Of a stretch of 64,000 bases of DNA, positions 4,865-62,622 are shown one piece after another (the stretch's first letter is position 1; each line of letters begins with the position of its first letter). A program made the translations under genes and the position numbers. The DNA comes from a virus: positions 29,142 to 93,141 of the IMG/VR virus record IMGVR_UViG_3300044691_000429; one strand, 5' to 3'. A model generated the notes under the pieces. It had not been told where the DNA came from. It was given only the letters and a program-made list of their open reading frames with translations, and did no database searches.

Positions 4865-7800
4865 ATGTCGAACCTGGTGGAAATCCTGGTAACGGCTAAA
4901 GACCTGACGGGCCCGGCGATGGCCGAGGTCAACGCGAAGGTCAACAGTGCATCCAAGGGCATGGCCGTCTTCCACAAGACGGCGCTGCTAGCCGGGGCGG
5001 GTTTCGCGGCCATTGGTTTCGAGGCCGTGAAGATGGCCAGCCGGTTCGACAGCGAAATGACCCTGTTGCAGACGCAGGCCGGGGTGAGCAAGGACAAGAT
5101 CGGCGGCCTCAAGCAAGGCGTTCTCGACCTTGCGGGGAAGGTCGCGCAGAGCCCGGACAGCCTCGCCGAGGCGCTGTTCCACGTCGAGTCGAACTTCGAA
5201 TCGATGGGCATCACCTCGACGAAGGCGCTCGCGCTGACCGAGACCGCAGCCAAGGGCGCCACCGTCGGCCACGCGAACCTCGTGGACGTCACCAACGCCC
5301 TGACCGCCGCCGTCGCCTCGGGAATCCCCGGGGTGCAGAACTTCGACCAGGCCATGGGCATGTTGAACGCCACGGTCGGTGTCGGCGACATGAAGATGTC
5401 CGACCTGGCTTCCGCGTTCAGCACCGGCATGGTCGCCACCGTCAAGGGCTACGGGCTCAGCATCACGGACGTCTCGGCCGCCCTGGCCGTCTTCGGTGAC
5501 AACAACATCAGGGGTACCAACGCGGCGACCCAGCTGCGCATGGCCGTGCAGTATCTGGCCAAGCCCGTGGCCGGCGGTGCGGCTCAGTTGCAGGCTCTCG
5601 GGTTGCAGACGGACACCCTGGCGAAGGACATGCAGAAGGGCGGCCTGAAGCTCGCCCTGGAGGATCTGGTCGGGCATATGCAGGCGGCGGGTATCGCCTC
5701 CGATCAGCAGGGCCAGGTCATCACCAACGCGTTCGGCAAAAAAGCTGGAACCGGGATCAATATTTTGGTCGACCAGCTCGGCCGCATGGAGAGCAAGTAT
5801 CCGGCGCTGGCCGCGGGTGCGATGGGTTTCCAGGACGCGTGGACGGCGACGACGAAGACGGCGGCGTTCCAGGCGAAGGCGCTCCAGTCGTCGTTCGACG
5901 CGTTGATGATCAGCATCGGGGAGAAGCTGCTGCCCCCGTTGCAGTCGCTCCTGAATCTGCTGTCGTCACACAAAGCGATCACCATGGGCGCGACCGTGGC
6001 GACTCTCGGCCTGCTCGGCGCTGTGGTGCTGGTGTCCGCGGCGATGAAGACGGCGGCGGCAGCCACGATGCTGTGGTCTGCGGCGACGAAGGGCGCGGCA
6101 GGCGTAGCGGCCGTGTTCGAGACTGTCGCCCTCAAGGCCATGTACATGAAGGACGCGTCGATCGCGGCCGGTGGTGGCCTGAAGGGTCTCGGTGCCGCGT
6201 TCGGCACGCTGTCCACCGGGGCGAAGCTGGGCGTCGCCGTGGCCGCGATCGGCGCGCTGGTGCTGGTCCTGGACAAGCTGTCGAACTCCGGGAAGCACGC
6301 CCCGGACGTTGACCGGATGGCCACGGCTCTCGGGGATCTGGCGCTGAAGGGCAAGGCGACGGGTGAGCTTTCGAGGACGTTCGGCGCGGATCTCAGCGGC
6401 CTGGGCGACGACATCGCGAAGCTCAGCGGCAAGAAGGACGCGCTCGATCACTTCAACGACGTGATGAACAAGATCTTCACCCTCGGCATGGGGCACTCCA
6501 ACGGGCCGAGGCAGGCGGCGGAGGATATCGGCGCGGTCGACAAGGGCCTCGCGTCGCTGGTGACGTCGGGGCACGCGGACCTGGCAGCGATCGCTCTGGG
6601 CAACCTGCAAAGGGCCGGGACGAAGATCGACCCGAAGTACCTGGACGCCTACACGCACGCGCTCGCCGACACCCAGTACCAGAGTGATCTGACCGCGCAG
6701 GCGCAGGGCAAGTTCGGCAAGCAGGCCCAGGACGTACAGGCCGCGCTCGACGTGCAGAAGGCCGCAGCGGACGGGCTGGCCCTGTCGCTCCAGGCGCTGG
6801 ACCAGATCAACCAGGACTCGTACAACTCGCAGACCAAGTTCGAGGACGCGATCAGCAAGGGCACCGCCGCACTGAAGACCAACGGCGCGACCCTCGATGT
6901 CCACACCGACAAGGGCCGGGCCAACCGGGACGCGCTCGCTGCGATCGCGGCCGGCACGGACGACTACACGGCCAAGCTCGTCAAGCAGGGAGCCACGTGG
7001 GACACGGTCAACGGGGTGTATCAGCGGGGTTACAACTCGCTGGTGAAGTCGGCCATTGCCATGGGCGACAGCCGGCAACAGGCCGAGGCGCTGGCGAACA
7101 GTCTGATCCACATTCCGAAGGAGGTGAAGGTAGGCGGCAATATCTCGGATGTCGAGGCGAAGCTGAAGAAGCTCAACGGGGAACTCAAGACCGCCACCGG
7201 GTCGAGGACGACGAAGGTCAAGGCGGACATCGCTGACGCCGAGAAGAAACTCGCCGACTACAAGTGGCAGTTGGCGCAACTGGGCCCCAAGACCGTCACG
7301 CTCACCACGTTCTTCAACTCGGTGTACTCGGGTCCGAACCTCGGTGGTCTCCCCAAGAGGGCGACCGGTGGCCAGATCAAGGGCCCGGGTACAGGCGCCA
7401 GCGATGACGTGCTGATGTGGGGCAGCAACGGCGAGTACGTCATCAACGCGGAGCAGACGAAGAAGCACAAAGGGCTGCTCGATGCCATCAACGGCGGCCT
7501 CGACGGGTTCGCCGGGGGTGGCCTTATCGGTTACGCCAAGGGCGGGAAGGTCACCGCAGCCCGGAAGGCAGCGCAGAAGGCAACCGCAGCGGAGCAGCAG
7601 GCACGCGGTGACGCACTGAGCCAGCTCGACGTGAGCGGGTACGGGCGGGTGGCCGGGTATTCCGCGTCGCCGTTCGAGCATTCGACGTCGGGTGCGGGCA
7701 GTGTGGACAGTCTCGTTAGCGCGTTGAATGAGTGGAACGGCCGTATCCGGGCGGCGACCCGCGGGGCGACCGAGTCGAAGCTGCTGAACGCGCTGAACAA

Positions 7801-8665
7801 CTTCGGCGCGGGGATGCTCAAGAACGAGAAGGCCCTCGAACGGGTCAACGGGCAGCTCGACGGCGCGCGGGCGAAGCTCACGAGCCTGAAGGACTCCTTC
7901 AATCAGCTGCGGGACTCCGTGGCGTCCTCGGTCACCTCATACGGCTCCATCGCGAAGTCCGGCACCGGCCAGCCGGGCGGGGCGGCGAGCGTCATCAACC
8001 AGCTCCAGACCGATACGACCACGGCGAAACGATTCGCCTCCGACCTGGCGGCGCTGAAGAAGAAGGGCCTGAACGCCCAGTCCCTCACGGAGATCGCGAA
8101 CGCCGGCATCTCGGGCGGCGGCCTGGAGACCGCGGAACGCCTCCTCGGCTCGTCCAAGAGCGACGTGAAGACCATCAACGCCCTGGAGAAGCAGCTCCTC
8201 GCCGCGGGCAACGCAGCGGGCACGACCACCGCGAGCAGCATGTACGGGGCGGGCATCAGCCAGGCGCAGGGCCTGGTGAACGGGCTGGCGAAGCAGCAGT
8301 CGCACCTGAACGCGATCATGGAGAAGGCCGCGGACGCCATGGCCGCGCAGCTCAAGCGGTCCCTGTCCGGCAAGGCGTCCGGCGGCATCGTGGGCGCCGC
8401 GGCGTCCGGAGGCAACCGGTGGGGCCGGACCCTGGTCGGCGAGTACGCGCCGGAACTGGTCGACCTGCCCATCGGGTCGCGGGTGCACTCGGGCCCGGAC
8501 ACCGCGCGGATGCTCTCCGGCGAGGGTGGACGGATGGCTCCGATCCTCGTCCAGGTCGTGATGGACAGCCGCGTCGTCGCGGAGCAGCTGGTCGAGCCCA
8601 CTCGGAACCTGGTGCAGCGCAAGGCCGGCGGGGACGTGCAGAAGTTCTACGGGGGGCGGCTCTGA
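4865..8665 (+). CDS. Tail tape measure protein (TP901-family N-terminal region)
   Basis: 1266 aa, Ala/Gly-rich helical, hydrophobic middle, GPGTG.SD.V...SNGEYV and GE..PELV motifs. Confidence 0.93.
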   Translation: MSNLVEILVTAKDLTGPAMAEVNAKVNSASKGMAVFHKTALLAGAGFAAIGFEAVKMASRFDSEMTLLQTQAGVSKDKIGGLKQGVLDLAGKVAQSPDSLAEALFHVESNFESMGITSTKALALTETAAKGATVGHANLVDVTNALTAAVASGIPGVQNFDQAMGMLNATVGVGDMKMSDLASAFSTGMVATVKGYGLSITDVSAALAVFGDNNIRGTNAATQLRMAVQYLAKPVAGGAAQLQALGLQTDTLAKDMQKGGLKLALEDLVGHMQAAGIASDQQGQVITNAFGKKAGTGINILVDQLGRMESKYPALAAGAMGFQDAWTATTKTAAFQAKALQSSFDALMISIGEKLLPPLQSLLNLLSSHKAITMGATVATLGLLGAVVLVSAAMKTAAAATMLWSAATKGAAGVAAVFETVALKAMYMKDASIAAGGGLKGLGAAFGTLSTGAKLGVAVAAIGALVLVLDKLSNSGKHAPDVDRMATALGDLALKGKATGELSRTFGADLSGLGDDIAKLSGKKDALDHFNDVMNKIFTLGMGHSNGPRQAAEDIGAVDKGLASLVTSGHADLAAIALGNLQRAGTKIDPKYLDAYTHALADTQYQSDLTAQAQGKFGKQAQDVQAALDVQKAAADGLALSLQALDQINQDSYNSQTKFEDAISKGTAALKTNGATLDVHTDKGRANRDALAAIAAGTDDYTAKLVKQGATWDTVNGVYQRGYNSLVKSAIAMGDSRQQAEALANSLIHIPKEVKVGGNISDVEAKLKKLNGELKTATGSRTTKVKADIADAEKKLADYKWQLAQLGPKTVTLTTFFNSVYSGPNLGGLPKRATGGQIKGPGTGASDDVLMWGSNGEYVINAEQTKKHKGLLDAINGGLDGFAGGGLIGYAKGGKVTAARKAAQKATAAEQQARGDALSQLDVSGYGRVAGYSASPFEHSTSGAGSVDSLVSALNEWNGRIRAATRGATESKLLNALNNFGAGMLKNEKALERVNGQLDGARAKLTSLKDSFNQLRDSVASSVTSYGSIAKSGTGQPGGAASVINQLQTDTTTAKRFASDLAALKKKGLNAQSLTEIANAGISGGGLETAERLLGSSKSDVKTINALEKQLLAAGNAAGTTTASSMYGAGISQAQGLVNGLAKQQSHLNAIMEKAADAMAAQLKRSLSGKASGGIVGAAASGGNRWGRTLVGEYAPELVDLPIGSRVHSGPDTARMLSGEGGRMAPILVQVVMDSRVVAEQLVEPTRNLVQRKAGGDVQKFYGGRL

Positions 8666-13292: not shown

Positions 13293-13577
13293 GTGGACGC
13301 CATCTACCGCGAGCGCGCCCACCTCGTAGCGCACCTAGCTGCCATCTACCCGTCACACATCGGGCACACCGACCCCGACGAGCCGGAGTGGGCTGTCGTC
13401 ACTATCAGCCTGCCTACCGGCCAGGCCACGTGGCACGTCGCGCCCGACGACATGGACCTCTTCGGGCACGTCCGCACGGACATCAGCGAACCGTGGGACG
13501 GCCACACCACCGAGCAGAAGTACGCCCGCCTGGACCATGCGACCCGCGTGAAGGCGGCCGGGGAGTGGGTGGCCTGA
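13293..13577 (+). CDS. WDGH-motif small protein
   Basis: YRER..L, LPTGQATWH and WDGHTT..KY.RL motifs. Confidence 0.7.
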   Translation: MDAIYRERAHLVAHLAAIYPSHIGHTDPDEPEWAVVTISLPTGQATWHVAPDDMDLFGHVRTDISEPWDGHTTEQKYARLDHATRVKAAGEWVA

Positions 13578-14509
13578 TGACCGCCATCCCCGGTGTCGAC
13601 TACTCCTCCGGCCGCCCGGGCGGCGCCGCGCTCGCGGCCGCGGGCAAGGCGTTCGCGGCGCGGTACGTGAGCACGCCGGGCAACCCGAAGAACATCACCC
13701 GGGCGGAGGCTGACGACCTCGCCGCGCACGGCGTGTGGTCCGTCGTCGTGTGGGAGACCACCGCCAACCGGGCCGGCGCCGGCCGCGCCGCGGGCATCGC
13801 CGATGCGCACGACGCCGTGGCCCAGGCGACCGCCGCAGGGATGCCGGGCAGCCGTCCGCTGTACTTCGCCGTGGACTGGGATGCCGACCCCGCCACGGTC
13901 GTCCCCTACTTCCAGGGCGTCGCCTCGGTACTCGGGTTGCCCCGGGTCGGCGGCTACGGCGGCTTCAAGGTCATCAAGTACCTGCTCGACCACGGCCTGA
14001 TCACCTACGGATGGCAGACCGCAGCCTGGTCGCAGGGCAAGCGGGACCCGCGCGCGGCCATCTACCAGCCCGCCACCGGCGTGCACATCAACGGCGTGGC
14101 CTGCGACAACGACACCGCGACCGTCACCGACTACGGGCAATGGATGCCCGGCAAAACCCCGGAGGCCCCCGTGCCTGACCTGACCCCGCAGATCGCCGAC
14201 GACACCAAGACCCTGCGCTCCGACCTGACCAAGGTCGCCTCCCTCACCGAAAAGGACGCGGCGGGCCACCCGGCGATCCACCCGGCGTCGTACTACCTCG
14301 CGCACACCCACTACGACGCGGTCCTGCTCAACACCAAGATCGACGGCCTGACCTCGCAGGTCGCCGCCCTGGCCAAGTCCCCGGGCGGCGCCACCCTGAC
14401 GGATGCCCAGGTCTCCGCCATCGCCGCGCAGGTCGCAGCCAGCCCCGTCCTCGCCGCAGCGGTGGCGACGGCCGTCGTCGACATCGAAGCCAAGCGTCTC
14501 CAGTCCTGA
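13577..14509 (+). CDS. Endolysin, GH25-like (DUF1906/Rv2525c-type) glycoside hydrolase
   Basis: GVDYS, F.ARY, VVWET, LYFAVDWD, GGYGG, WQT.AWS, DYGQW motifs; upstream of the holin. Confidence 0.88.
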   Translation: MTAIPGVDYSSGRPGGAALAAAGKAFAARYVSTPGNPKNITRAEADDLAAHGVWSVVVWETTANRAGAGRAAGIADAHDAVAQATAAGMPGSRPLYFAVDWDADPATVVPYFQGVASVLGLPRVGGYGGFKVIKYLLDHGLITYGWQTAAWSQGKRDPRAAIYQPATGVHINGVACDNDTATVTDYGQWMPGKTPEAPVPDLTPQIADDTKTLRSDLTKVASLTEKDAAGHPAIHPASYYLAHTHYDAVLLNTKIDGLTSQVAALAKSPGGATLTDAQVSAIAAQVAASPVLAAAVATAVVDIEAKRLQS

Positions 14510-20352: not shown

Positions 20353-20541
20353 TCACGCCTCCTGCTTCTGGCCGTAGTAGCCGGAGCGGGGGTTGGTGGT
20401 GTCGGACAGGTGGACGCGGTACCCGTCGGTGGCCAGGACGAGCGGGTCGCTGGCGGTGCCGGGGTGGCCGCAGGCCGCGCAGGTGTTGCGCTGGCCTTTG
20501 TGGTCGCGGGCCTGCTGGGTGGTGTTGATGTAGCCAGCCAC
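20353..20541 (-). CDS. Small CxxC protein
   Basis: CAACGH, DGYRVH. Confidence 0.6.
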   Translation of the reverse strand: MAGYINTTQQARDHKGQRNTCAACGHPGTASDPLVLATDGYRVHLSDTTNPRSGYYGQKQEA

Positions 20542-20544
20542 GGG

Positions 20545-20721
20545 TCAGCCCTCCTTGATGACGTAGATGGCGCCGTTCGGGTCGATGGCGAGGACGGTGC
20601 CGCAGCCGCCGCACTCGTAGACCCGGTAGCCGTCTCGGCTGCCCTTGTGGGCCATGACCTCTTTGCAGCAGACAGGCGGGTCGTCGGTCATGCGGGAGTT
20701 GGTGACGGTTCGGGATGCCAT
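20545..20721 (-). CDS. Small zinc-ribbon protein (58 aa, not in ORF track)
   Basis: MASRTV...PVCCKEVM...YECGGCG; RBS upstream. Confidence 0.55.
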   Translation of the reverse strand: MASRTVTNSRMTDDPPVCCKEVMAHKGSRDGYRVYECGGCGTVLAIDPNGAIYVIKEG

Positions 20722-20723
20722 GG

Positions 20724-20918
20724 TCAGTTCTCCTGCTTCTCGCCGAGCCGGACTTCCATGGAGGCGCGGCCGAGTTCGGCGATCTCGCTGCCGTCGGTGG
20801 TGCGAGTGGCGAAGCGTGCGTTGACCTCGGCGACGATGCGGTCGGTGGTCCTGATGTCGCCGCGCCGCTTGGCAGCGACGTACTCGCGGACGGAGTCGTG
20901 CTGGTAGTTGGTGGACAT
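20724..20918 (-). CDS. Hypothetical protein
   Basis: AAAGGA RBS, 64 aa, first gene downstream of the clt-like array. Confidence 0.65.
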   Translation of the reverse strand: MSTNYQHDSVREYVAAKRRGDIRTTDRIVAEVNARFATRTTDGSEIAELGRASMEVRLGEKQEN

Positions 20919-20942
20919 GGGATTCCTTTCGATCTTGGTTGA

Positions 20943-21104
20943 GCCGGTCCGGGGCCGGTCGGGACCCGGTCGGTGGGGGTGTTTGCCCTAGTCTGTGCCC
21001 GGACGGAGGCCGGACGGGACTCGCAGCCAGCAGTTCTGGCGGCCAGCCCCCGGCCGGGCCGAACCCGGGTGCTACCCGGCCTGAGACCGGGTCCCGGCCG
21101 GGTC
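20943..21104 (-). repeat. clt-like locus: 8-bp repeats in 11-bp phase (candidate TraB recognition sequences)
   Basis: CCGG cores at 20944, 20955, 20966, 20999, 21010, 21054, 21065, 21076, 21087, 21098, all the same modulo 11; minus-strand 8-mers include GACCCGGC and GACCCGGT. Confidence 0.7.
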
Positions 21105-23135
21105 CATCAGCCCTGCGGCGGCCTGTTCGACCGCCGACCGCTCCCAGCCGCGGAGCCGGCCGTTGGCCTCGGTGTCCCGGCTGGCGGTCACGCCCGGCGC
21201 GTGCTTGCGGAGAATCCGGCCAAGGCGCTCCGAATCCATCTCGCCATACCCGGAGTTGTGGAGCGCGGGCAGCAGCGTCTCGGACGTCGGCAGGAAGTCG
21301 GCGGCGCCCAACTCGAACTCCCGCAACAGGATGGCGACCAGCCGTGCATCGTCCACTCCGCCCTGTGAGGCCAGGGCGTCAAGCCGGTCGGCGATAAGGT
21401 CGCCACGCCCGGACGTCGAGAGGTTCGCCCCGGAGCCGATCAGGGTGTCGGCGTCCATGCGGGGCCGGCCCGCCTTGAGACGCTCGGGCAGGGCGGCGGT
21501 GATCTGCGGGCGGGTGTACTGGTTGAACTGGTGGCGGATGGCCCGGGTCAGCGCGCCGCCCATGATCATGGCCTGGCCCGCGTCGTTCGCAACGGGGCCA
21601 ACGGCGGGCTTCATGCGGTCCGGCCGCCAGCCGAGAGCGCCAGCACCCACACCGAACGCAATCTTGACGTCCTCGAAGCGGCAGGCCATCAGTATCCGGT
21701 AGGCGACGATCGCCGCGATGGCGTCACCGAGAGCGTCGGCTGTAGCCTCCTGACCGGCCATGATGAGGTAGATGCCGTACTGGCGGCCCGTCCGCAGGAT
21801 CTTGATCGCGGCGTCCTTGCCCTTGGCACTGAGCTGGATGAACTCGTCGATGTTGATGTACAGGTTCGGGTGCTCCGGGGTGGCGTGCCACCGGTCGCCC
21901 ATCCCCAGGGTGTGCATGAGCTTGCCGCGGGCGGACACGTAGGTCAGGGCCTCGTCCAGCGCTTCCTCGCACTCCTCGGGCCCCCTCGCCCGGCGGGCCA
22001 TGAGGTCGCCGAACTCGGACAGCCCGCCCTTGATCGGGTCCAGGTCCCACACGACGGCGTCCCGGCACGCGGTCAGGGCCTCGTTGATGGTGCGCAGCGC
22101 TCCGAGGCTCTTGCCCGCGCCCATCGCTCCGATGATCAGAGCGCAGAACCCATCGAGGCTGAGTTCGAGGGTGCTCCCGTCCATGGTCCGGCCCATGTGG
22201 ACCACATCGTGCACGGACAGGGAGTTCGGGGGCCGCACCGCGGGCTTCGGCATGTCCGCGAACGGGTTGGACGCGACGAGCCGCACGGTGACCCTGGACT
22301 TGTCGCGACTGTCCGGCTCGGGCATGAACCCGCCGTCGGGCAGGGCGAGATGCCCCTCGATCTGGTCGGACGCGGCCATGACCTTGCCCGGGGTGGCGCC
22401 CTTGAGTTCCAGGGCGATCTCCCAGCCCCAGCCGCGGTAGCCGAGCACGTTGATCTGCCGGGCGCCGATGCCCTCGGCCTTGAGGGCGCGCTGGATGCAG
22501 GTCCGGACCTGCTCGCCGTCCTTGCACCAGGCCAGCGGGAACGGCTCGCCGTCGTCCACCTCGGGCTCCGGGCCGGGTCCGATCGCGGTCGCGACCGGGG
22601 CGGCCTCCAGCGCCCGCCTGATGTTGATGCGCCGCCCGTACCCGGTGACGACAGCCCCGGCGATCGCGGTCTCGGCCGCGGGCGCCGCGAGGAACGCCTC
22701 CCCGGCGGGCATGCCCACACCCAGCACGAGGCCGAGGGATGCCGCAACGGTGAGGACGACCCCGCCCCCGGCGGTGCCCGCGGCGGTGATCCACCGGCGG
22801 TGGCGCTCCTCGCGGATCTTGTCCCAGTCCGCATTGCTGCGGGGCTCCACGGACTCGACGCGATCGGTCGCCCGCACGTACCGCCAGCCCGCGCGGGTCG
22901 TGCCGTGCAGACCCCGCCCGAGCCACCCTCCGCCGGTGCCTGCCGCGCGGGCGGTGTGGCCGAGGCCGCGCCCGGTCGCCCTAGCAGCGACCAGCGCGGC
23001 GGACTGGGTGGTGCGCGGCGCCGGCCGGGTGGTGGGCACGTCCGGCGCCGCGGGCTTCGCGGGGACGTAATCCGGCTTGAGGAAGTCCGGCACGTCGATG
23101 TCGGCGGCCGTGCGGGAGGAGCTGTCGATGGCCAT
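21072..23135 (-). CDS. traB: TraB-like FtsK/SpoIIIE conjugative DNA translocase
   Basis: Two N-terminal hydrophobic segments, Walker A GAMGAGKS, LDPIKGG, Walker B YINIDEF, GRQYGI...AGQ, GWRPDRM, C-terminal wHTH-like region. Confidence 0.85.
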   Translation of the reverse strand: MAIDSSSRTAADIDVPDFLKPDYVPAKPAAPDVPTTRPAPRTTQSAALVAARATGRGLGHTARAAGTGGGWLGRGLHGTTRAGWRYVRATDRVESVEPRSNADWDKIREERHRRWITAAGTAGGGVVLTVAASLGLVLGVGMPAGEAFLAAPAAETAIAGAVVTGYGRRINIRRALEAAPVATAIGPGPEPEVDDGEPFPLAWCKDGEQVRTCIQRALKAEGIGARQINVLGYRGWGWEIALELKGATPGKVMAASDQIEGHLALPDGGFMPEPDSRDKSRVTVRLVASNPFADMPKPAVRPPNSLSVHDVVHMGRTMDGSTLELSLDGFCALIIGAMGAGKSLGALRTINEALTACRDAVVWDLDPIKGGLSEFGDLMARRARGPEECEEALDEALTYVSARGKLMHTLGMGDRWHATPEHPNLYINIDEFIQLSAKGKDAAIKILRTGRQYGIYLIMAGQEATADALGDAIAAIVAYRILMACRFEDVKIAFGVGAGALGWRPDRMKPAVGPVANDAGQAMIMGGALTRAIRHQFNQYTRPQITAALPERLKAGRPRMDADTLIGSGANLSTSGRGDLIADRLDALASQGGVDDARLVAILLREFELGAADFLPTSETLLPALHNSGYGEMDSERLGRILRKHAPGVTASRDTEANGRLRGWERSAVEQAAAGLMDPAGTRSQAG

Positions 23136-23138
23136 GGG

Positions 23139-24482
23139 TCAGGCGTCCTTCGGAGTCGCGGTCTTGGCGGTTATGGCGGCCTGCTTGCGGGCGGCTTCAA
23201 CGAACGGGGCGGTGTCCCCCGGGCGGCGTACTCCACGCACCGGAGGACCGGTAACCGAGCCCCTACGGCGAGTAGGGGGGACTTGCGGATTCACCTGCGC
23301 GTTGCCGATCTTCCACACGGTCTTGTCGGGGGCGTCCGCGCGGGCGTCGAGCATGCGTCGGGCAGCCGCGTTCCGGAGCTGCTGGGCCTCCGCGGAGTCG
23401 CCCGGGTCGGTGCCCTCGACGTCCTTGTGGGCCCGCCTCCAAACGGTCTCGGTGACGGTCGTTTCGCCGAGCGCGGCGGCCAGTTTGACGGCGTGCTCCC
23501 ACACCTTCGGGTACAGCGTTTCGCGGTCCTTCGTGAGCTTCTCGAAGGCCGCCTTCGCCGCCTTCTCGGCGGCCTCCTTCTCGGCCTTCACAGCTGCCTC
23601 GCGGGCGGCCTTCTCGGCAGCAGCCCGCTTCTCCGTGCGCTCCTGATCCTTCCGCTCGCGACCCGTCAGGGCGCCGTCGCGCTTCCGGATCCGGCCGTGC
23701 TCGTGCAGGTCCCACACGCCGGGGCCGGCGACCGAGGCGAAGGCGGTAGCGAGAGCCGTCGCCATCCCGAAGTGCCCCAAACCGTGCGTCAGGTTGATGC
23801 CCGCAGCAACAAACGCCAGCGCCCACGCGATCAGGCGGTAGTGCCAGTGCGGCCGGTGGTCATCGACCGCTGCAGCAGCACCGCGGAGGACAACCCACGC
23901 GCCGCCTTCGAGGAAGAGCGGTGCGGCAACGAGCCAGGGTGCGGCAGGGTTCCAGAACGCGGATGCCTGCACCGGGAGCGCAACAACGGCGCACACGACG
24001 GCGAAGCCGAGGGCGGCACGCTTCCAGGAGGACGCGGACTTGCCGTGCTTGGCCTGCTGCTCGATGTCGGCCTGCCGCTGCGCTGCGGCTGCGAGGCGGC
24101 CGTCCTCGCGTGCCCGGTCGGCCTCATCTCGCTTGCGATTGGATTCGGCGATGCGCGCCTCACTGGCGGCGTCTTCCTCGCGGGCACGCCGGGCGGTCTT
24201 GTCGTTGGCGAGCTGCAGCCGACGGGCTTCCTCTGCCGCCCTGACCTTCTCGGCTTCGGCCTTGCCTTCGGCTTCGATCAGCAGGGCTGCGGCTTCGGCC
24301 TCGGCGCGGGTGCGGATGGCGGCGGCTTCGGCGGCGGCCACCAGGTCCACGGCCGGCCCAGCGGCGGGCGCCGGCTCGGGTGCGGTCTCGGGTTCGGCGA
24401 TGCCGCCGATGCGGATGGGCGTGAACGGCTCCCATGTGGGCACGTGGGGCCGCGTGGTGCCGTTCAGGGTCTGGCCGGACAC
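23139..24482 (-). CDS. SpdB-like spread/transfer membrane protein (coiled coil, 4 TM, coiled coil)
   Basis: Ala/Glu/Arg coiled coil, four hydrophobic segments, AGINLTHG, directly upstream of traB. Confidence 0.7.
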   Translation of the reverse strand: MSGQTLNGTTRPHVPTWEPFTPIRIGGIAEPETAPEPAPAAGPAVDLVAAAEAAAIRTRAEAEAAALLIEAEGKAEAEKVRAAEEARRLQLANDKTARRAREEDAASEARIAESNRKRDEADRAREDGRLAAAAQRQADIEQQAKHGKSASSWKRAALGFAVVCAVVALPVQASAFWNPAAPWLVAAPLFLEGGAWVVLRGAAAAVDDHRPHWHYRLIAWALAFVAAGINLTHGLGHFGMATALATAFASVAGPGVWDLHEHGRIRKRDGALTGRERKDQERTEKRAAAEKAAREAAVKAEKEAAEKAAKAAFEKLTKDRETLYPKVWEHAVKLAAALGETTVTETVWRRAHKDVEGTDPGDSAEAQQLRNAAARRMLDARADAPDKTVWKIGNAQVNPQVPPTRRRGSVTGPPVRGVRRPGDTAPFVEAARKQAAITAKTATPKDA

Positions 24483-28762: not shown

Positions 28763-29008
28763 TTAGGCGGCGTCGTCGGCGGAAATCTGCGACGCCCGGA
28801 GGAACTCGGCCACGGCCGACTCGGGGATGCGCAGTCCGCGCTTCCGCAGTCGCCCTTCGCCGATCCGGTGGGCGCGGATGCGCCCGGAGTCGGCGAGGCG
28901 GTACACGGTGGACACGTGGACGTCGAGGCGGTCCGCGACCTGCTGCGCCCGCAGCAACGGCTCAGCAGTGGCGGGGGCCGTAGTCGGGGCAGTCGGGTCG
29001 TGGCACAC
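28763..29008 (-). CDS. Excisionase-like HTH protein (first gene of the tra operon)
   Basis: LLRAQQVADRLDVHVSTVYRL..SGRI.A.RIG...RIPESAV; AGGAG RBS. Confidence 0.85.
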   Translation of the reverse strand: MCHDPTAPTTAPATAEPLLRAQQVADRLDVHVSTVYRLADSGRIRAHRIGEGRLRKRGLRIPESAVAEFLRASQISADDAA

Positions 29009-29045
29009 GGAATCTCCTAGGGCATGGGCAGCGGGGCGCACATCT

Positions 29046-29102
29046 TCTTCGAAGAGGCACCTCTTCAGTGAAGCTGAGTTCTTCGAAGAAGGCAAGCTCT
29101 TC
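29046..29102. promoter_or_regulatory. Operator cluster upstream of the tra operon
   Basis: Palindromes TCTTCGAAGA (29046-29055) and TTCTTCGAAGAA (29079-29090), plus half-sites. Confidence 0.7.
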
Positions 29103-29134
29103 TAGCTCGCACAGCAGCAGGCCGCGTCGGACAC

Positions 29135-29170
29135 GCAAAGAAGCCCCCCGCTGCCGAAGCAGCGAGGGGC
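29135..29170 (-). terminator. Intrinsic terminator of the GntR gene
   Basis: Minus strand GCCCCTCGCTGC-TTCG-GCAGCGGGGGGC followed by TTCTTT; C(UUCG)G tetraloop. Confidence 0.8.
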
Positions 29171-29185
29171 GGAGGACTTCGCAGG

Positions 29186-29935
29186 TCAGGAGGAGAAGAC
29201 GTACTCCAAGATGTAGTTGGACCCGTCGAGCGTCATCTCATTGACTTCTACGAGGCGGTCATTCTGGTCCGCCGCGATGCGGATGATCTGGAAGACGGGA
29301 GTGCCAGGGCCCAAACTGAGATCGGCCGCCTCCTGGGGGGTGGGCATCCTAGTCCTCACCTCCTCCTTGAACCGCGTGGGCGCATGGCCACTCTCGGCGA
29401 GTCGGGCGTACATACCGCCGGGGCCAGTGTCCTGCTGAGTGATGGCCGTGCCAGCCGCCAAGCTCATTGGCACATACGAGACGGCGGTCTGAATGAGCCG
29501 CTCCTCCACATAGAAGCGCCGGCTCCGGCGGCACATGCGCTCGTCAGACTCCAGGAGTTGAGCCACGTGATCGGGCGCATCGACCTCGTTGACGTCCACC
29601 TCGACGCGACGCGGGCGGTCCTCCAGGTCAACGTCCCAGATCGACCGCCCGGCATGCCACACCTCCGAAGAGAGGCGCTGCACTGCGGGCCGTCTGATTG
29701 GGCGGAAGGCGCGGACGGTGACGCCGACCCCCTGCCTGCTCTCAACGAGGCCTTCTGCGCGAAGGGCGTCCAGGGCCTGCCGCACGGTGGACCGAGCGGC
29801 CGCATGCCGCTCCATGAGGCCGTTCTCGCCTTCGATCTTCGACCCCGGCGCCAGCTCGCCGCCGAGGATCTTCGCGCGCAGCTCGTCCGCGATCTCCTGA
29901 TGGCGGCGCGGCCCGCGCTCGGGCTTGCTGGGCAA
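29186..29935 (-). CDS. GntR (HutC/UTRA subfamily) repressor, KorSA/Kor-like
   Basis: IADELR.KI..G...PG....E..L......RSTVRQAL..L..EGLV...QG.G wHTH plus UTRA-like C-terminus; TTG start after GGAGGA. Confidence 0.92.
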   Translation of the reverse strand: MPSKPERGPRRHQEIADELRAKILGGELAPGSKIEGENGLMERHAAARSTVRQALDALRAEGLVESRQGVGVTVRAFRPIRRPAVQRLSSEVWHAGRSIWDVDLEDRPRRVEVDVNEVDAPDHVAQLLESDERMCRRSRRFYVEERLIQTAVSYVPMSLAAGTAITQQDTGPGGMYARLAESGHAPTRFKEEVRTRMPTPQEAADLSLGPGTPVFQIIRIAADQNDRLVEVNEMTLDGSNYILEYVFSS

Positions 29936-30013
29936 GGCATTCCTCCTAGATCGGCTTCTTCAGAGATGTTAGCTACCGACCGGTTGACGTGCGAACTCTG
30001 CGAATCCCTTGCG

Positions 30014-30027
30014 GTTCTTCGAAGAAG
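30014..30027. promoter_or_regulatory. Operator copy between GntR and the GIY-YIG gene
   Basis: GTTCTTCGAAGAAG, identical to 29078-29091. Confidence 0.7.
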
Positions 30028-31920: not shown

Positions 31921-32715
31921 GTGAGGACGTTTCGCATGATGCCGCCGGAGGGCTGGGTGCCGACGGCAAACGTGACAGCTCAGAACTCTCGGTTGAGCTG
32001 GCGGGCGAAGGGGCTGCTCCTCGACCTGCTCAGCTACCCGGACGGTTACAACGTCACGTTCGACTCGCTGATGAAGGAAGCGAAGCGGGCTGGCGACCCG
32101 GACGTTGAGGGCCGGGACGCGATGCGCAAGGCGATGCAGGAGCTGGAGCGCAAGGGCTACCTCGCTCATCGCCGGGTCGCAGTGATGGATCCGGCGCCCG
32201 GAGCGCAGAAGTGGCGCACAGAGACCGCGATCTCGGATCTGCCCATCTTCGCAGGTCGGCCCGGAACTACGGGTTCCCAGTACCACCAGGATTCAGTACC
32301 TCCAGACTTCAGTACTTCCAGTGATCAGGAGGTCTTTAACAACACGGGGTTTAACAAGAAGAACCAGCAGCAAGATGAAGCGGGCAAATCCTCCTCCGCA
32401 CTCGCTGCCGCTCGTGCGGGCCAGGGAGCCAGCGCGCAAAAGCTGCGGCCGGACATGCAGGGCTGGTACGACGCGGCGGACAAGCTCTCCGATGACCGAC
32501 TGCGGCGCCACCTGCTCGCGTTCGAGCGGAAGCGCCCGCAGATCTACCGCGAGTGCCGTCAGTCGGCGCTCGTCCAGATCGGCGGGAAGCCGGGCGGCAA
32601 GGAGTTGATGGCCGGCCGGGACGGCGTTCGCGTGATCGACATGCTCAGCTTCAAGTACGCCCTGCTGCACTACGTGGACCGCATGCCGGACTGGCTGATC
32701 AAGCTGCCGCGCTAG
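31921..32715 (+). CDS. Replication initiator-like winged-helix protein
   Basis: LSWRAKGLL..LLS.PDG.......EGRDAMRKAMQELE.KGYL; internal iterons and AT-rich tract. Confidence 0.7.
   Translation: MRTFRMMPPEGWVPTANVTAQNSRLSWRAKGLLLDLLSYPDGYNVTFDSLMKEAKRAGDPDVEGRDAMRKAMQELERKGYLAHRRVAVMDPAPGAQKWRTETAISDLPIFAGRPGTTGSQYHQDSVPPDFSTSSDQEVFNNTGFNKKNQQQDEAGKSSSALAAARAGQGASAQKLRPDMQGWYDAADKLSDDRLRRHLLAFERKRPQIYRECRQSALVQIGGKPGGKELMAGRDGVRVIDMLSFKYALLHYVDRMPDWLIKLPR
32278..32357 (+). repeat. Iteron-like repeats plus AT-rich repeats (candidate ori 2)
   Basis: CAGTACYWCCAG at 32278, 32294, 32310 (16-bp period); TTTAACAA at 32335 and 32350. Confidence 0.65.
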
Positions 32716-41812: not shown

Positions 41813-43139
41813 CACGCCGCCTCGCCTTCGCCGCGCGCCTGCCACTGCGGGCAGCCGCTGACGGGCCGGTGGTCCTCGCCGAGGTCGAGCCCGGCACCGC
41901 ACGACGGCAGTACCGGCCCGGACGCGCCCCAGTTGCAGCCGGGCTCGCACCCGCAGGCGTCACCCCCCGCGTCGTGCTGCACGCACGTCAGGCACGAACG
42001 GGTCTCCGGGTTGTGCCAGCAGCGGGCGATGTGGGCGGTCGTGGTGGCCTTCTTCGACCGGGAGCGGGTGCAGAACGGGCACCGGAAACGGGTCACGCGC
42101 AGGGCGATCGGGGCGGCGGGCATCACGCCTCGCTCCCGTCGGCGTGCTGGACGAGCCGGTAGCCGGTACGCCGCGTGGGCGAGTTGTGGAGCTGGCGGAC
42201 AGCGATCATGCGGAGGCGGAGGTACCGGTCCCCGTCGACCGTGACGACAGCGACCCGGCCCCTGCCGAACACCCCGGGAACGGTCGGGCCGGCCACCCGG
42301 ATGCGCAGGGTCGTGTTTTCGGCGGCGTTGTGCGACTCGTACTCCTGGCCGGGTTCGATGCGGTGGTCATCGGTGCTGGTCATAGCGGCGGGTCCTTTCA
42401 GGCGGCGGCGTGTGGGCGGGGGGTGGGGTCAGGCGCGGAGGTGGCGGGTCACGCGACGTCTTCGGCGGCGGGGTCGTGGTCCTGGTAGGCGGCGGCCGAG
42501 CGGGGGGTGAACCTGCGCTCGAACACCGCGCTCTGGTCGGCGAGTTCGGCGGCGAGCCGGTAGATCGCGCCGGTCGCGGGGTGCCCGAGCGGAGTGGTCT
42601 CGCAGACCTCACGGACGAGGCTGAAAGCGGCGAACGGGCTGAACGCGGGCGGGCTCTGCGTGCACGGCCGGTGCGTGCCGCGGTCGAGCTGCCCCAGTTC
42701 CAGGCGGGCACGTTCGAGGCGGGACACGTTCGCGACGGGCCGGCTCGCCCCGCGGTTCGCGCGGATCACGGCGTCGAGGATCTGGCGCATCGCCGGGTAG
42801 ACGGCGGACCAGGCGGCGGGTGGCTGGGTCATGCGGTGTCTCCTTGGGTCAGGCAGGCGGGCGGGTTGGTCAGGGTCGGGGCGGCTGGGTTGCGGCGCGA
42901 ATGTTGATCTGCGCGACGAGGTCCTCAAGCCCGACCGGGTCAGCCGGCGGCAGTGGGGGCTGCGGGCCGGCCTGCACTCCCCAGCTGCACGTCCAGGTGT
43001 GGCCGCAGCCGGGGCAGCGGTAGGCGGCTATGAGTCCGCCGTCCCCGTCGGGCAGCGCCATGGCGGGTCGGGCAACGATGCGAGTGCGCTCGGAGAGGCA
43101 GCTCTCGCAGGTGTCGCTGTACGGCGGGTAGGTGATCAC
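41812..43139 (-). CDS. Four small ORFs (41812-42126, 42123-42383, 42449-42832, 42870-43139)
   Basis: Coupled ORFs, two with CxxC motifs. Confidence 0.55.
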
Positions 43140-44449
43140 CAGATCGCTCCTGTCGGTGAGTGGCCTGTGATGTCGTCGAAGTCGATGGGCCGGTACGAGG
43201 TCCAGGGCCAGTCCTCGCCCTGGCGGATGAAGCCGGGCCACGCGCGTTCGTCGCGCATGCCGCGCCAGGGCAGGAAGCGCCGGCCGCGGGCGCCGTCGGC
43301 GTTGGACGCGGACTTCTCGTCCTCGACGGGGCGCAGGCCGAACCCGAACTCCGGCCAGCGCATCCACAGCGAGGAGCCGAGGGGGCGCAGGTTGCGGTGC
43401 GCGGACTGCCCGTTGTGGTGGGGCGCGTGGGCTTCCATGAGGACGGCGCAGTCGGTGGTGGCGCGGGCTTCGTCGATGACCGCCGAGACCTTGCGGGCCA
43501 GCTCTTCGGAGTTGGGGTCTCCGGCGTGGAGCCGGTAGATCGGTCCGACGATCAGCAGTTCGGGCTTGAGCTTCTCGACACGCCGCATGAACCAGGCGCG
43601 GTCTGCCGGCCGGGTGAGGTCGAGCCCTTCCGGGCGGCACTCGATGTGGAACATGCCGCGCTCCAGCGGCCGGTGCCCCTTGTTGGCAGCGGCGGCGAGC
43701 AGCGGACGGAACTTGCGGCGGGAGACGGGCGCGCCGTTCTCGCAGTCGAGGACGAGGACGCGGTGGGGGTCGATGTACTCCCACGGCTTGAAGGGGTGCA
43801 GGCCGGACGCGATGGTGACCGCGATCTGCCGGAGCAGCGTTGACTTGCCGCCGCCCTCCGTCGCGGTGAGGATCAGCCGGTCGCCGTACTCCAGGAGGTC
43901 TGGGACCAGCCAGTTGTACGCGTCCTCAACGTTGACGAAGTCGAGGAGATCCATCGTCGGCAGGTCGGCGTTGGCCTGGCCGCGGTCGCGAATGTCGCGC
44001 GCGCGGGCGACGGCGTGCTCAACGAGGTCGAAGGTGGCGCCGGACGGATCGAGGGCGGTGCGGGCGGTTTCCTCGCCGTGCTCGGCGAGAGCCCGGCGCA
44101 GCGCGCGGTCGACGATGATCGCCGCGTATTCGTGGGCGAAGATCGTGTCGGCCTGGCCGGAGATGGTCCAGATGTACTGCTGGCCGCCGACGAGGTCGAG
44201 TTGCCCCTCGTCGGCGAGGTGCTTGATCAGGGTGATCGTGTCGACAGCCGCACCGGCGGCGAACATGGCGGCGAGCGCGGTGTAGATCGGGCCGTGGGTG
44301 CTGCCCCAGAAGTCGTGGGGTCCGACGACTTCGAGGGTCTCGGCGAGGACGCGGCGGCTGTTCATGCAGGCACCGAGGAGCGAGCGCTCGGCGGGCAGGT
44401 CGTGCGGGGGGAGCCGGTCCGGGGGGCGCTCGTCGTCATCGAAGGTCAT
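43136..44449 (-). CDS. Replicative helicase: DnaB-like N-domain plus RecA-type (AAA_25) ATPase
   Basis: PPHDL.AE.SLLGA, DF....H..IY, Walker A ATEGGGKS, DCEN, RPLGSS. Confidence 0.9.
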   Translation of the reverse strand: MTFDDDERPPDRLPPHDLPAERSLLGACMNSRRVLAETLEVVGPHDFWGSTHGPIYTALAAMFAAGAAVDTITLIKHLADEGQLDLVGGQQYIWTISGQADTIFAHEYAAIIVDRALRRALAEHGEETARTALDPSGATFDLVEHAVARARDIRDRGQANADLPTMDLLDFVNVEDAYNWLVPDLLEYGDRLILTATEGGGKSTLLRQIAVTIASGLHPFKPWEYIDPHRVLVLDCENGAPVSRRKFRPLLAAAANKGHRPLERGMFHIECRPEGLDLTRPADRAWFMRRVEKLKPELLIVGPIYRLHAGDPNSEELARKVSAVIDEARATTDCAVLMEAHAPHHNGQSAHRNLRPLGSSLWMRWPEFGFGLRPVEDEKSASNADGARGRRFLPWRGMRDERAWPGFIRQGEDWPWTSYRPIDFDDITGHSPTGAIW

Positions 44450-62169: not shown

Positions 62170-62622
62170 ATGTCCGAGTCCGCAGGACGACTGGAAACGC
62201 ACGTCGGACTCCAGTACAACCCCGAGATCACCCTCGACCGGCTCGGGATAGCCGTCGTCCGCATCTGGCTGCGGGACACCTGGGCGGCATGGTCGGCGTC
62301 CAACCGGACCGTAGTCCTCGCTTCGGGGCTGACCCGCATCCAGGAGCGCTGCGTCCTCGCCCACGAGGTTGAGCACATCGCGGGCGGCGACTTCGACTGC
62401 AGCAACAGGCGCCTGTCGATCCGCCAGGAGCGCCGCGCCGACATCGGCGCCGCACGTAGGCTGATCGCCATCTCGGACCTGGCGGAGATCGCTCAGTGGG
62501 CCGACGATGTGTCCACCGCCGCCCTGGAACTGAACGTCACCGAACGCATGTTGCAGGTGCGGCTCAACGACCTGGCGGGAGAGGGGTGGCCGTGGCCGGC
62601 TGGATCGAAGATCGCTGGTTGA
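62170..62622 (+). CDS. ImmA/IrrE-family metallopeptidase
   Basis: L...QERC.LAHEVEH, E..AD..AARRLI, A.EL.V......RL. Confidence 0.88.
   Translation: MSESAGRLETHVGLQYNPEITLDRLGIAVVRIWLRDTWAAWSASNRTVVLASGLTRIQERCVLAHEVEHIAGGDFDCSNRRLSIRQERRADIGAARRLIAISDLAEIAQWADDVSTAALELNVTERMLQVRLNDLAGEGWPWPAGSKIAG

What the first reader, a model, noticed from the sequence alone, without database searches (positions are those of the whole stretch)
20943..21104. Ten CCGG-core repeats in exact 11-bp phase at the end of traB: a clt-like locus
Seen: CCGG starts at 20944, 20955, 20966, 20999, 21010, 21054, 21065, 21076, 21087 and 21098 all share one phase modulo 11, even across gaps of 33 and 44 bp (CCAG at 21043 is also in phase). 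The minus-strand 8-mers are GACCCGGC, GACCCGGT, AGGCCGGG, CACCCGGG, GGCCCGGC, CGTCCGGC, CGTCCGGG, CGACCGGG, CGACCGGC and GGACCGGC. The array spans the traB stop codon, and 11 is not a codon multiple. Known: TraB of pSVH1 binds 8-bp direct repeats GACCCGGA in a clt next to traB. Inference: this is the cis-acting transfer locus, so the transfer system retains its cis element.
Basis: partly seen in the sequence, partly recalled or inferred. Interest (0 to 1): 0.8.

Follow-up and report, generated by a model that had tools for sequence, protein, structure and literature searches.

The report
Phage TraB docking-repeat array (clt-like)
At the end of a plasmid-type DNA-pump gene in a 93-kb temperate Streptomyces phage lies a real array of short repeats spaced exactly 11 bp apart, most likely the site where the pump's DNA-binding tail docks; this is a known kind of site in Streptomyces plasmids, found here in a phage.

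Summary
Window 20944-21101 has 13 CCGG, and 10 share one phase modulo 11. No dinucleotide shuffle out of 20,000 gave more than 5, and the next best place in the 93-kb genome has 4.

The array is two opposed arms around a dyad axis near 21028, not ten simple direct repeats. The upstream arm overlaps the last 10 codons and the stop of a 687-aa FtsK/TraB-like translocase gene.

The element is a complete temperate tailed phage. It also carries a GntR/UTRA regulator and a Xis-like gene at the head of the operon.

Twelve relatives (~60% identical TraB, mostly proviruses or complete phages) have the same 11-bp forward-then-inverted array at the same place, although the downstream gene differs. About 30 more distant Streptomyces traB loci and plasmid pSLUN2 show the same layout with locus-specific motifs.

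One relative (L010) is a natural chimera in which only the C-terminal winged-helix domain and the array were exchanged together. Recognition-helix residues track the motif.

I read the array as a clt-like TraB loading site (confidence about 0.7). Binding and transfer are untested. It is a new variant of a known kind. This scan has noted phage-borne TraB-clt modules before on other DNA.

The parts
20944..21104 (-). Whole 11-bp-phased array: 15 slots of 11 bp read on the minus strand, 10 with CCGG and one with CTGG at the same offset
21043..21104 (-). Upstream arm: six contiguous slots (GACCCGGC, GACCCGGT, AGGCCGGG, CACCCGGG, GGCCCGGC, GGGCTGGC). It overlaps traB codons 678-687 and the TAG stop.
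20944..21016 (-). Downstream arm: CGTCCGG twice (20999, 21010), then two empty slots, then CGACCGG, CGACCGG and GGACCGG (20966, 20955, 20944). It is the inverted partner of the upstream arm and ends 26 bp before the next gene's ATG.
21017..21042 (.). Central spacer holding the dyad axis (near 21028). It lacks the CGCAGGT element that relatives have at this position.
21072..23135 (-). FtsK/TraB-like dsDNA translocase gene (687 aa, P0001): hydrophobic segment around aa 119-145, Walker A GAMGAGKS at aa 336
21075..21413 (-). C-terminal domain (aa 575-687), predicted winged helix-turn-helix
21201..21233 (-). Predicted recognition helix H3 (aa 635-645, SERLGRILRKH). Residues 643-644 co-vary with the repeat motif among relatives.
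23139..24482 (-). 447-aa gene directly upstream of traB, syntenic in all relatives (about 420-450 aa, Ala/Glu-rich). No family match.
20724..20918 (-). 64-aa gene directly downstream of the array. It is unrelated to the 190-276-aa basic protein that follows the array in relatives.
29186..29935 (-). GntR/UTRA regulator (Kor/TraR-like) at the head of the leftward operon. Its candidate operators TCTTCGAAGA lie at 29046, 29080 and 30016 and are unrelated to the CCGG array.
28763..29095 (-). Xis-like HTH_17 gene, first gene of the operon that ends with traB and the array

Best explanation
The array is the loading site (clt-like set of TraB recognition sequences) for the phage-encoded TraB-like double-stranded-DNA translocase whose gene it overlaps. 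It has two opposed arms of five to six short sites with core CCGG; the best units read GACCCGG(C/T). The sites are spaced exactly 11 bp apart, so they lie on nearly one face of the helix. [quoted passage not shown] An arm of about six sites would then match one hexamer, and the two arms would load rings in opposite orientation. The membrane-anchored ATPase would then pump the circular phage or prophage DNA into a neighbouring hyphal compartment or a recipient.

Shown here: the array is real and unique in the genome. It is conserved in place, period and dyad layout. It travels with the C-terminal domain in a natural recombinant. The C-terminal domain is predicted to be a winged helix.

Inferred: physical binding, the one-hexamer-per-arm stoichiometry, and that the outcome is conjugative or intramycelial transfer of the phage genome.
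For: (1) Statistics: 10 of 13 CCGG are in one 11-bp phase, against a maximum of 5 in 20,000 shuffles, and the array is unique in the 93-kb genome.

(2) Twelve relatives with about 60% identical TraB carry forward GACCCGGC five to six times across the stop, then inverted GCCGGGT about four times, all at 11-bp spacing. Period 11 is the best period near the stop in every full-length ~60% relative; the truncated L015 is the exception. Their downstream gene is different from ours, so the array follows traB and not the next gene.

(3) Relatives at 42-45% identity, more distant traB loci from a sample of 401 Streptomyces genomes, and plasmid pSLUN2 have the same layout with their own motifs: CCGTCT, CCGTCC, TGCTCA, GTGACG, GGTGCT, CTGCTA, GGAACA, CCGGAA, CTCTAC. 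In 19 of 39 loci the 300 bp at the stop is the most repeat-rich window of the locus.

(4) L010 is a chimera. Its ATPase core is 93% identical to L004 but its C-terminal domain is 79% identical to L028, and its motif is the L028 type. At the nucleotide level the L028-like patch runs only from about -330 to +100 relative to the stop, which is the C-terminal domain plus the array.

(5) Helix-3 residues track the motif: RK in CCGG-core loci including ours, QS or RA in CCGTCT loci, AG in the CCGTCC locus.

(6) The C-terminal domain model (pLDDT 87) has winged-helix topology, and all best PDB matches are winged-helix DNA binders.

(7) The peptide tail changes with the DNA motif (DPAGTRSQAG / DPAQTRQDPG / DPSKARLEAA), so selection acts on the DNA repeats.

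(8) Literature: TraB binds repeated 8-bp motifs in clt through helix alpha-3 of its C-terminal wHTH (PMC4447253, PMC10191066, PMC3583192). The pWTY27 clt covers 16 bp inside traA plus the adjacent 159 bp and holds direct and inverted repeats (PMC3583192).
Against: There is no binding or transfer experiment. The translocase is only distantly related to characterised plasmid TraBs: 30-35% identity, NCBIfam TraB 41.9 bits against a cut-off of 800, and Pfam FtsK_SpoIIIE below its cut-off. Its nearest annotated relatives are FtsK-like proteins of lytic cluster-BE phages, whose role is unknown, and LukeCage has no such array. In our window only CCGG is invariant, the flanks are degenerate, and the CGCAGGT element found in 28 of 41 related loci is missing. 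The co-inheritance of the C-terminal domain and the array in L010 is partly confounded by their adjacency. The fold search found generic winged helices only, with no specific match to the FtsK gamma domain. No experimentally mapped clt (pSVH1, pWTY27) was available as a positive control.
Confidence: 0.7

Rival explanations
1. It is a regulatory operator array. The repeats would bind a regulator (TraB's own tail acting as autoregulator, or another phage protein) to control transcription read-through or the promoter of the small genes downstream of traB, with no role in DNA transfer.
For: The array fills the whole traB-to-next-gene interval and ends 26 bp before the next ATG. In relatives the inverted arm abuts a conserved AT-rich element (TGATCCATATATGTGAAGTT) just ahead of the downstream gene's ribosome-binding site.
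Against: The downstream gene is not conserved between our phage and its relatives, while the array is. No promoter-like or terminator-like consensus lies in 20500-21400. The operon's GntR regulator has its own distinct palindromes, TCTTCGAAGA three times at 29046-30025. Half of the array lies inside the coding sequence. A regulatory role and a clt role are not mutually exclusive.
Confidence: 0.12
2. It is a plasmid-type centromere or replication iteron array (as in R1 parC, which has ten 11-bp iterons), serving partition or replication of an extrachromosomal prophage.
For: Ten to eleven 11-bp-phased units in two clusters resemble ParR-type centromeres (own knowledge of R1 parC). The record has terminal direct repeats consistent with a circular form.
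Against: No partition or Rep gene is adjacent by Pfam, PHROGs or NCBIfam. Separate iteron-like arrays exist elsewhere: a 16-bp period at 32278-32321 inside a Rep-like gene, and 8-bp and 11-bp repeats at 45099-45185 near the DnaB-like helicase. The array always accompanies traB in chromosomal, plasmid and phage loci and co-varies with the TraB C-terminal domain.
Confidence: 0.05
3. It is a structural by-product: a long GC-rich hairpin acting as an RNA terminator or stabiliser after traB, or a recombination scar, with no sequence-specific protein partner.
For: The two arms can pair: the predicted RNA fold is -98 kcal/mol with the outer arms forming a long stem.
Against: The fold energy is not unusual for this composition: z = -1.48, and 15 of 200 shuffles fold at least as well. 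There is no U-tract and no terminator-like hit. A hairpin does not need exact 11-bp phasing of a 4-bp core, nor arm-wide motif turnover that keeps period and orientation.
Confidence: 0.05

Closest known systems
clt with 8-bp TraB recognition sequences of Streptomyces venezuelae plasmid pSVH1 (Reuther 2006; Vogelmann 2011, as cited in PMC4447253, PMC3583192, PMC10191066)
   Same: Short repeats lie next to traB. A FtsK-like translocase has a C-terminal winged helix whose helix 3 reads the repeats.
   Different: Ours is on a tailed temperate phage. The translocase is only about 30-35% identical to plasmid TraBs and fails NCBIfam's TraB cut-off. The phase is exactly 11 bp, the layout has two inverted arms, and the array overlaps the coding end. 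The pSVH1 sequence and paper were not available, so its spacing and motif could not be compared directly.
clt of Streptomyces plasmid pWTY27 (PMC3583192)
   Same: An experimentally defined clt covers 16 bp inside the tra gene plus the adjacent 159 bp. It contains direct and inverted repeats and is footprinted by the Tra protein. This is the same position and size as our array (about 33 bp inside traB plus about 128 bp downstream).
   Different: The motifs are different (TGACACC, CCCGCCC). pWTY27 is a small theta-type plasmid, not a phage. No exact 11-bp phasing is reported.
Streptomyces plasmid-phage pZL12 / phage ZL12 (GQ919031; Zhong 2010, cited in PMC4487206 and PMC7157519)
   Same: A ~90-kb Streptomyces element that is both a phage and, by report, conjugally transferable. 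It is a functional precedent for a phage that also moves by mating.
   Different: No homologue of our translocase and no FtsK_SpoIIIE domain was found in the pZL12 record with these queries. Its annotated transfer candidates are of another type, Tra3-like. pZL12 has ParA/ParB, whereas our element carries an integrase.
FtsK gamma domain and KOPS
   Same: A hexameric dsDNA pump has a C-terminal winged helix that reads an 8-bp polar motif to load in a defined orientation.
   Different: KOPS are scattered and strand-skewed over a whole chromosome. Here the motif is not enriched and has no clear strand skew genome-wide: GACCCGG occurs 23 and 39 times against 25.6 expected per strand. It is concentrated in one array.
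parC centromere of plasmid R1 (ten 11-bp iterons bound by ParR; own knowledge)
   Same: About ten sites at 11-bp spacing in two clusters place bound proteins on one helical face.
   Different: No ParM/ParR-type genes are present. The array is tied to a translocase gene and to its winged-helix domain.

Membership tests
[quoted passage not shown] | Lies next to or overlapping the 3' end of the tra/traB gene | tested here: met
   The array at 20944-21104 spans codons 678-687 and the stop of the 21072-23135 gene. The position is the same in 12 relatives.
[quoted passage not shown] | Several copies of a short (about 8-bp) repeat, often with inverted repeats | tested here: met
   There are 10 in-phase units and two inverted arms.
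[quoted passage not shown] | Specifically bound by the cognate TraB through helix 3 of its C-terminal wHTH | not testable with these tools
   Only indirect evidence: the C-terminal domain and the array are exchanged together in L010, and helix-3 residues track the motif.
[quoted passage not shown] | Required in cis for TraB-dependent transfer | not testable with these tools
   This needs a mating assay.
TraB (Streptomyces conjugative FtsK-like translocase) | FtsK/SpoIIIE-type ATPase core with Walker A and B | tested here: met
   phrog_12531 FtsK/SpoIIIE-like, E 4e-88. Walker A GAMGAGKS at aa 336 and YINIDEF at aa 426-432. Pfam PF01580 gives only 19.6 bits, below its cut-off of 24.
TraB (Streptomyces conjugative FtsK-like translocase) | N-terminal membrane anchor | tested here: inconclusive
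   A simple hydropathy scan gives one strong segment at about aa 119-145. No dedicated TM predictor was available.
TraB (Streptomyces conjugative FtsK-like translocase) | [quoted passage not shown] | tested here: met
   The AlphaFold model has pLDDT 87 and H-b-H-H-b-b topology. All best PDB matches are winged helices, but they are weak (Foldseek E >= 0.08, VIA Z <= 6.0).
TraB (Streptomyces conjugative FtsK-like translocase) | Reaches the NCBIfam equivalog model NF041214 (plasmid_TraB) | tested here: not met
   41.9 bits over aa 245-471 against a cut-off of 800. The protein is a distant, phage-clade relative and not an equivalog.
KOPS-like genome-wide guide motif (FtsK) | Motif over-represented and strand-skewed along the replicon | tested here: not met
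   GACCCGG occurs 23 and 39 times on the two strands against 25.6 expected. GACCCGGC occurs 8 and 13 times against 8.8 expected.
ParR/parC-type centromere | Adjacent partition genes (ParM/ParR or ParA/ParB) | tested here: not met
   No partition family was found among the 20 neighbouring proteins scanned.

The most novel reading that the evidence does not exclude
A family of complete temperate tailed Streptomyces phages (62-93 kb) uses a built-in TraB-like pump and a dyad array of two opposed sets of about six docking sites to load two hexamers head-to-head. The pump then pushes the double-stranded phage genome between hyphae without virions. Such a phage would be conjugative, and its specificity module (winged helix plus array) would be exchanged between lineages as a 400-bp cassette.
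Probability: 0.35. Interest if true: 0.8.

Novelty: new variant of a known kind. Interest (0 to 1): 0.55.

Why it matters
If the array is a working clt, this phage and at least ten relatives have two routes of spread: virions, and capsid-free pumping of dsDNA through hyphal contacts. That would blur the line between transduction and Streptomyces-type conjugation. It could also mobilise host DNA through clt-like chromosomal sites.

The comparative data give a testable rule for TraB specificity. Helix-3 residues track the repeat motif, and there is a natural domain-plus-site swap. The data also describe a common clt layout of forward arm, spacer and inverted arm at about 11-bp spacing. That layout could be used to annotate clt sites next to traB genes in genomes.

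Tried and rejected
- **Nucleotide search:** megablast of 20500-23300 against phages and plasmids found no match.
- **Wider locus search:** a second viral-contig scan with an alignment returned the same 10 loci.
- **Papers not held:** Vogelmann 2011 and Zhong 2010. Two full-text searches for GACCCGGA returned only unrelated papers.
- **Records not in the collections:** pSLE1 and pWTY27. pSVH1 did not appear among the plasmid hits. So no experimentally mapped clt could serve as a positive control.
- **pZL12:** no homologue of the translocase and no PF01580 match. P0001 itself scores below the Pfam cut-off, so a divergent pump could be missed.
- **Fold searches of the C-terminal domain:** only generic winged helices, with no FtsK-gamma row among those listed.
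- **KOPS-like genome-wide bias:** not seen.
- **RNA hairpin or terminator reading:** z = -1.48 and no terminator-like or promoter-like site.
- **SpdA palindrome (sps) of pIJ101-type plasmids (PMC4170104):** considered for the CGCAGGT element and rejected. sps lies within or at spdA genes and encodes SRDD/E.
- **CCGG as a restriction or methylation target:** rejected. CCGG is not depleted (14.1 per kb), and relatives use non-CCGG motifs.
- **Lytic cluster-BE phage LukeCage:** no comparable array after its FtsK-like gene.

Full report
**Observation.** CCGG starts at 20944, 20955, 20966, 20999, 21010, 21054, 21065, 21076, 21087 and 21098 share one phase modulo 11. Three further CCGG (20949, 21050, 21094) are out of phase and come from overlapping CCGGNCCGG or CCGGCCGG. 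In 20,000 dinucleotide-preserving shuffles of the 162-bp stretch (78% GC) the in-phase count never exceeded 5, against 10 observed. Only period 11 and its double stand out, and the binomial chance is about 9e-8. No other 165-bp stretch has more than 3 in the window or 4 in the whole 93,141-bp genome.

Read on the minus strand in 11-bp slots, the units are GACCCGGCCGG, GACCCGGTCTC, AGGCCGGGTAG, CACCCGGGTTC, GGCCCGGCCGG, GGGCTGGCCGC, then two empty slots, CGTCCGGCCTC, CGTCCGGGCAC, two empty slots, and CGACCGGGTCC, CGACCGGCCCC, GGACCGGCTCA. The TAG stop of the 687-aa gene at 21072-23135 lies in the third unit, and codons 678-687 are made of repeat DNA.

The array is also dyad-symmetric about 21028. 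Arms 20955-20971 / 21085-21101 are 94% complementary and 20997-21016 / 21040-21059 are 80% complementary, on the same axis. It is therefore two opposed arms, not ten equivalent direct repeats.

**Context.** The window is bases 29142-93141 of a 93,141-bp IMG/VR virus record with 127-bp terminal direct repeats and 70% GC.
- Phage genes include a tape-measure protein (4865-8665), an endolysin (13388-14509), a DnaB-like helicase (43136-44449), a RusA-like resolvase and an integrase (62496-63965).
- Between the lysis genes and the early genes lies a leftward operon. It starts with a GntR/UTRA regulator (29186-29935) and a Xis-like HTH_17 gene (28763-29095), and runs through many small genes and a 447-aa protein to the translocase.
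- The translocase (P0001) matches phrog_12531 FtsK/SpoIIIE-like at E 4e-88. It matches Pfam FtsK_SpoIIIE only weakly, and NCBIfam plasmid_TraB at 41.9 bits against a cut-off of 800.
- Its best annotated relatives are FtsK-like translocases of lytic cluster-BE Streptomyces phages (40% identity over aa 201-642). Streptomyces plasmid proteins are 29-35% identical.
- It has a Walker A at aa 336 and one strongly hydrophobic segment at about aa 119-145.

**Relatives.**
- Ten IMG/VR loci and two genome loci encode TraB-like proteins about 60% identical to P0001. The five checked are proviruses or near-complete phage genomes of 62-88 kb, 97-100% complete by CheckV.
- The full-length relatives have the same arrangement: forward GACCCGGC five to six times at 11-bp spacing across the stop, a short spacer, then inverted GCCGGGT about four times at 11-bp spacing. 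L010 is arranged the same way with the motif CCGTCT.
- Period 11 is the best self-match period near the stop in every full-length one.
- Gene order upstream is conserved: a small membrane protein, a 420-450-aa protein, then TraB. The gene after the array differs: a 190-276-aa basic protein in relatives and a 64-aa protein here. The array therefore belongs with traB.

**Distant loci.** A sample of 401 Streptomyces genomes gave 30 more loci at 29-46% identity.
- Most show a locus-specific 6-mer in forward orientation just after the stop, followed by the same motif inverted, at spacings of 10-12 bp. The motifs are CCGTCT, CCGTCC, TGCTCA, GTGACG, GGTGCT, CTGCTA, TGCTCG, GGAACA and CCGGAA.
- A true plasmid, pSLUN2, has CTCTAC / GTAGAG in the same layout.
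- In 19 of 39 loci the 300 bp at the stop hold more copies of one 6-mer than any other window of the locus.
- Motif classes follow C-terminal-domain classes.

**Coupling to the C-terminal domain.** L010 is a natural chimera.
- Its ATPase core is 93% identical to L004 and 52% to L028. Its C-terminal domain is 45% identical to L004 and 79% to L028. Its repeats are the L028 type, CCGTCT.
- A sliding nucleotide comparison puts the L028-like patch at only about -330 to +100 relative to the stop. That is exactly the C-terminal domain plus the array, with L004-like sequence on both sides.
- Adjacency alone could carry both parts together. Even so, a 430-bp patch bounded at the domain border and at the end of the array is what a matched protein-site pair predicts.
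- The C-terminal 113 residues fold with pLDDT 87 into helix, helix, strand, helix, helix, hairpin, helix. All best PDB matches are winged-helix DNA binders, but they are weak and generic.
- The predicted recognition helix (aa 635-645, SERLGRILRKH) ends in RK in all CCGG-core loci, QS or RA in CCGTCT loci, and AG in the CCGTCC locus.
- The peptide after the winged helix changes with the DNA motif (DPAGTRSQAG, DPAQTRQDPG, DPSKARLEAA), so the DNA repeats set the peptide and not the reverse.

**Comparison with what is known.** Published work states that TraB assembles at clt and recognises repeated 8-bp motifs through helix alpha-3 of its C-terminal winged helix (PMC4447253, PMC4170104, PMC10191066). 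It also states that known clt loci contain direct and inverted repeats, and that the pWTY27 clt comprises 16 bp inside traA plus the adjacent 159 bp and is footprinted by TraA (PMC3583192). Our array matches these features in position, size and repeat content. The pSVH1 motif GACCCGGA is recalled knowledge. I could not check it because the paper and the plasmid record are not held.

**Mechanism proposed.** Each 11-bp slot offers one site on nearly the same helical face. An arm of about six sites would fit the six winged helices of one hexamer. Two opposed arms would load two rings in opposite orientation on the circular element, and the membrane-anchored motor would then translocate dsDNA. Everything from binding onward is inferred.

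**Rivals.**
- *Operator for downstream genes.* This is weakened by the non-conserved downstream gene, the lack of promoter or terminator consensus, and the distinct palindromes TCTTCGAAGA (three copies around the GntR gene) that more plausibly serve the regulator.
- *Centromere or replication iterons.* No partition or Rep gene is adjacent, and other iteron-like arrays lie at 32278-32321 and 45099-45185.
- *RNA hairpin.* The fold energy is not unusual (z = -1.48).
- *KOPS-like genome-wide guide.* The motif counts argue against it.

**Novelty.** The site type is known. What differs is the host element (a complete temperate tailed phage and a family of such phages), the distant phage-clade translocase, the exact 11-bp phase, the dyad layout and the overlap with the coding end. 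The experimental precedent for a transferable Streptomyces phage-plasmid, pZL12, has no detectable homologue of this translocase. Earlier notes of this scan describe phage-borne TraB-clt modules on other DNA and the whole module on this genome. I did not use them as evidence.

**Verdict.** The clt-like reading is supported by comparative evidence (confidence about 0.7). It is a new variant of a known kind, with interest 0.55.

Noticed in passing
L004-L055, +15 to +150 after the traB stop; absent from window 20900-21150: A second conserved element, CGCAGGT(CA), often with an inverted partner (TG)ACCTGCG, sits at fixed places inside the arrays of 28 of 41 traB loci with quite different repeat motifs. 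The forward copy lies at +15 to +61 and the inverted copy at +122 to +150. Background is 0.11 per 360 bp. pSLUN2 has CCGCAGGTCAGCG and CGCTGACCTGCG. Our window lacks it. Its partner protein is unknown.
   Followed up: partly
L004-L014 and L027-L029, directly after the inverted arm: An AT-rich element, CC(C)TATTGATCCATATATGTGAAGTTCT, is conserved across loci whose repeat motifs differ. It lies just ahead of the downstream gene's ribosome-binding site. It may be a promoter or a recombinase-type site. It is absent from our window, where the downstream gene is different.
   Followed up: no
L010 (IMGVR_UViG_2643221578_000002), -330 to +100 around the traB stop: A natural cassette exchange: only the C-terminal winged-helix domain and the repeat array are of the L028 type, inside an otherwise L004-like gene and locus.
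   Followed up: yes
L015 (Streptomyces albidocamelliae chromosome, NZ_CP106795.1): A truncated copy of the translocase (matches aa 342-684 only, 71% identical). Its repeat region is a 22-bp tandem (GCCCCGGCAGC AAGGCGGCGTA, three times), and its frame runs on past the usual stop. It is probably a decayed remnant.
   Followed up: partly
window 45099-45185: A perfect tandem CCCTTGCT (4.1 copies) is followed by three TCCGGAGC at 45146, 45158 and 45179. It lies about 650 bp from the start of the DnaB-like helicase gene (43136-44449). It is a candidate origin or other protein-binding array.
   Followed up: no
window 32278-32321: 16-bp-period repeats (CAGTACC.CCAGA...) lie inside a gene with weak matches to replication-initiator and HTH DNA-binding phage families (31864-32715). 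This is a candidate origin within an initiator gene.
   Followed up: partly
window 29046-29089 and 30016-30025: Three exact copies of the palindrome TCTTCGAAGA (none expected by chance) flank the GntR/UTRA gene and the head of the xis-to-traB operon. They are probable operators of the Kor-like repressor.
   Followed up: partly
L002 (Streptomyces phage LukeCage, MH590597.1, gene 110): The FtsK-like translocase of lytic cluster-BE phages is 40% identical to ours and aligns into the C-terminal domain (to P0001 aa 642). No repeat array follows it, and the next gene starts 5 bp later. Its role in a lytic phage is unexplained.
   Followed up: partly
window 20353-20721: Two small proteins downstream of the array (58 and 62 aa) each carry Cys pairs; the 58-aa one has two (CC..CGGC). 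The 58-aa one has a weak match to a zinc-ribbon family. Small zinc-binding proteins also flank traB in plasmid pSLUN2.
   Followed up: no
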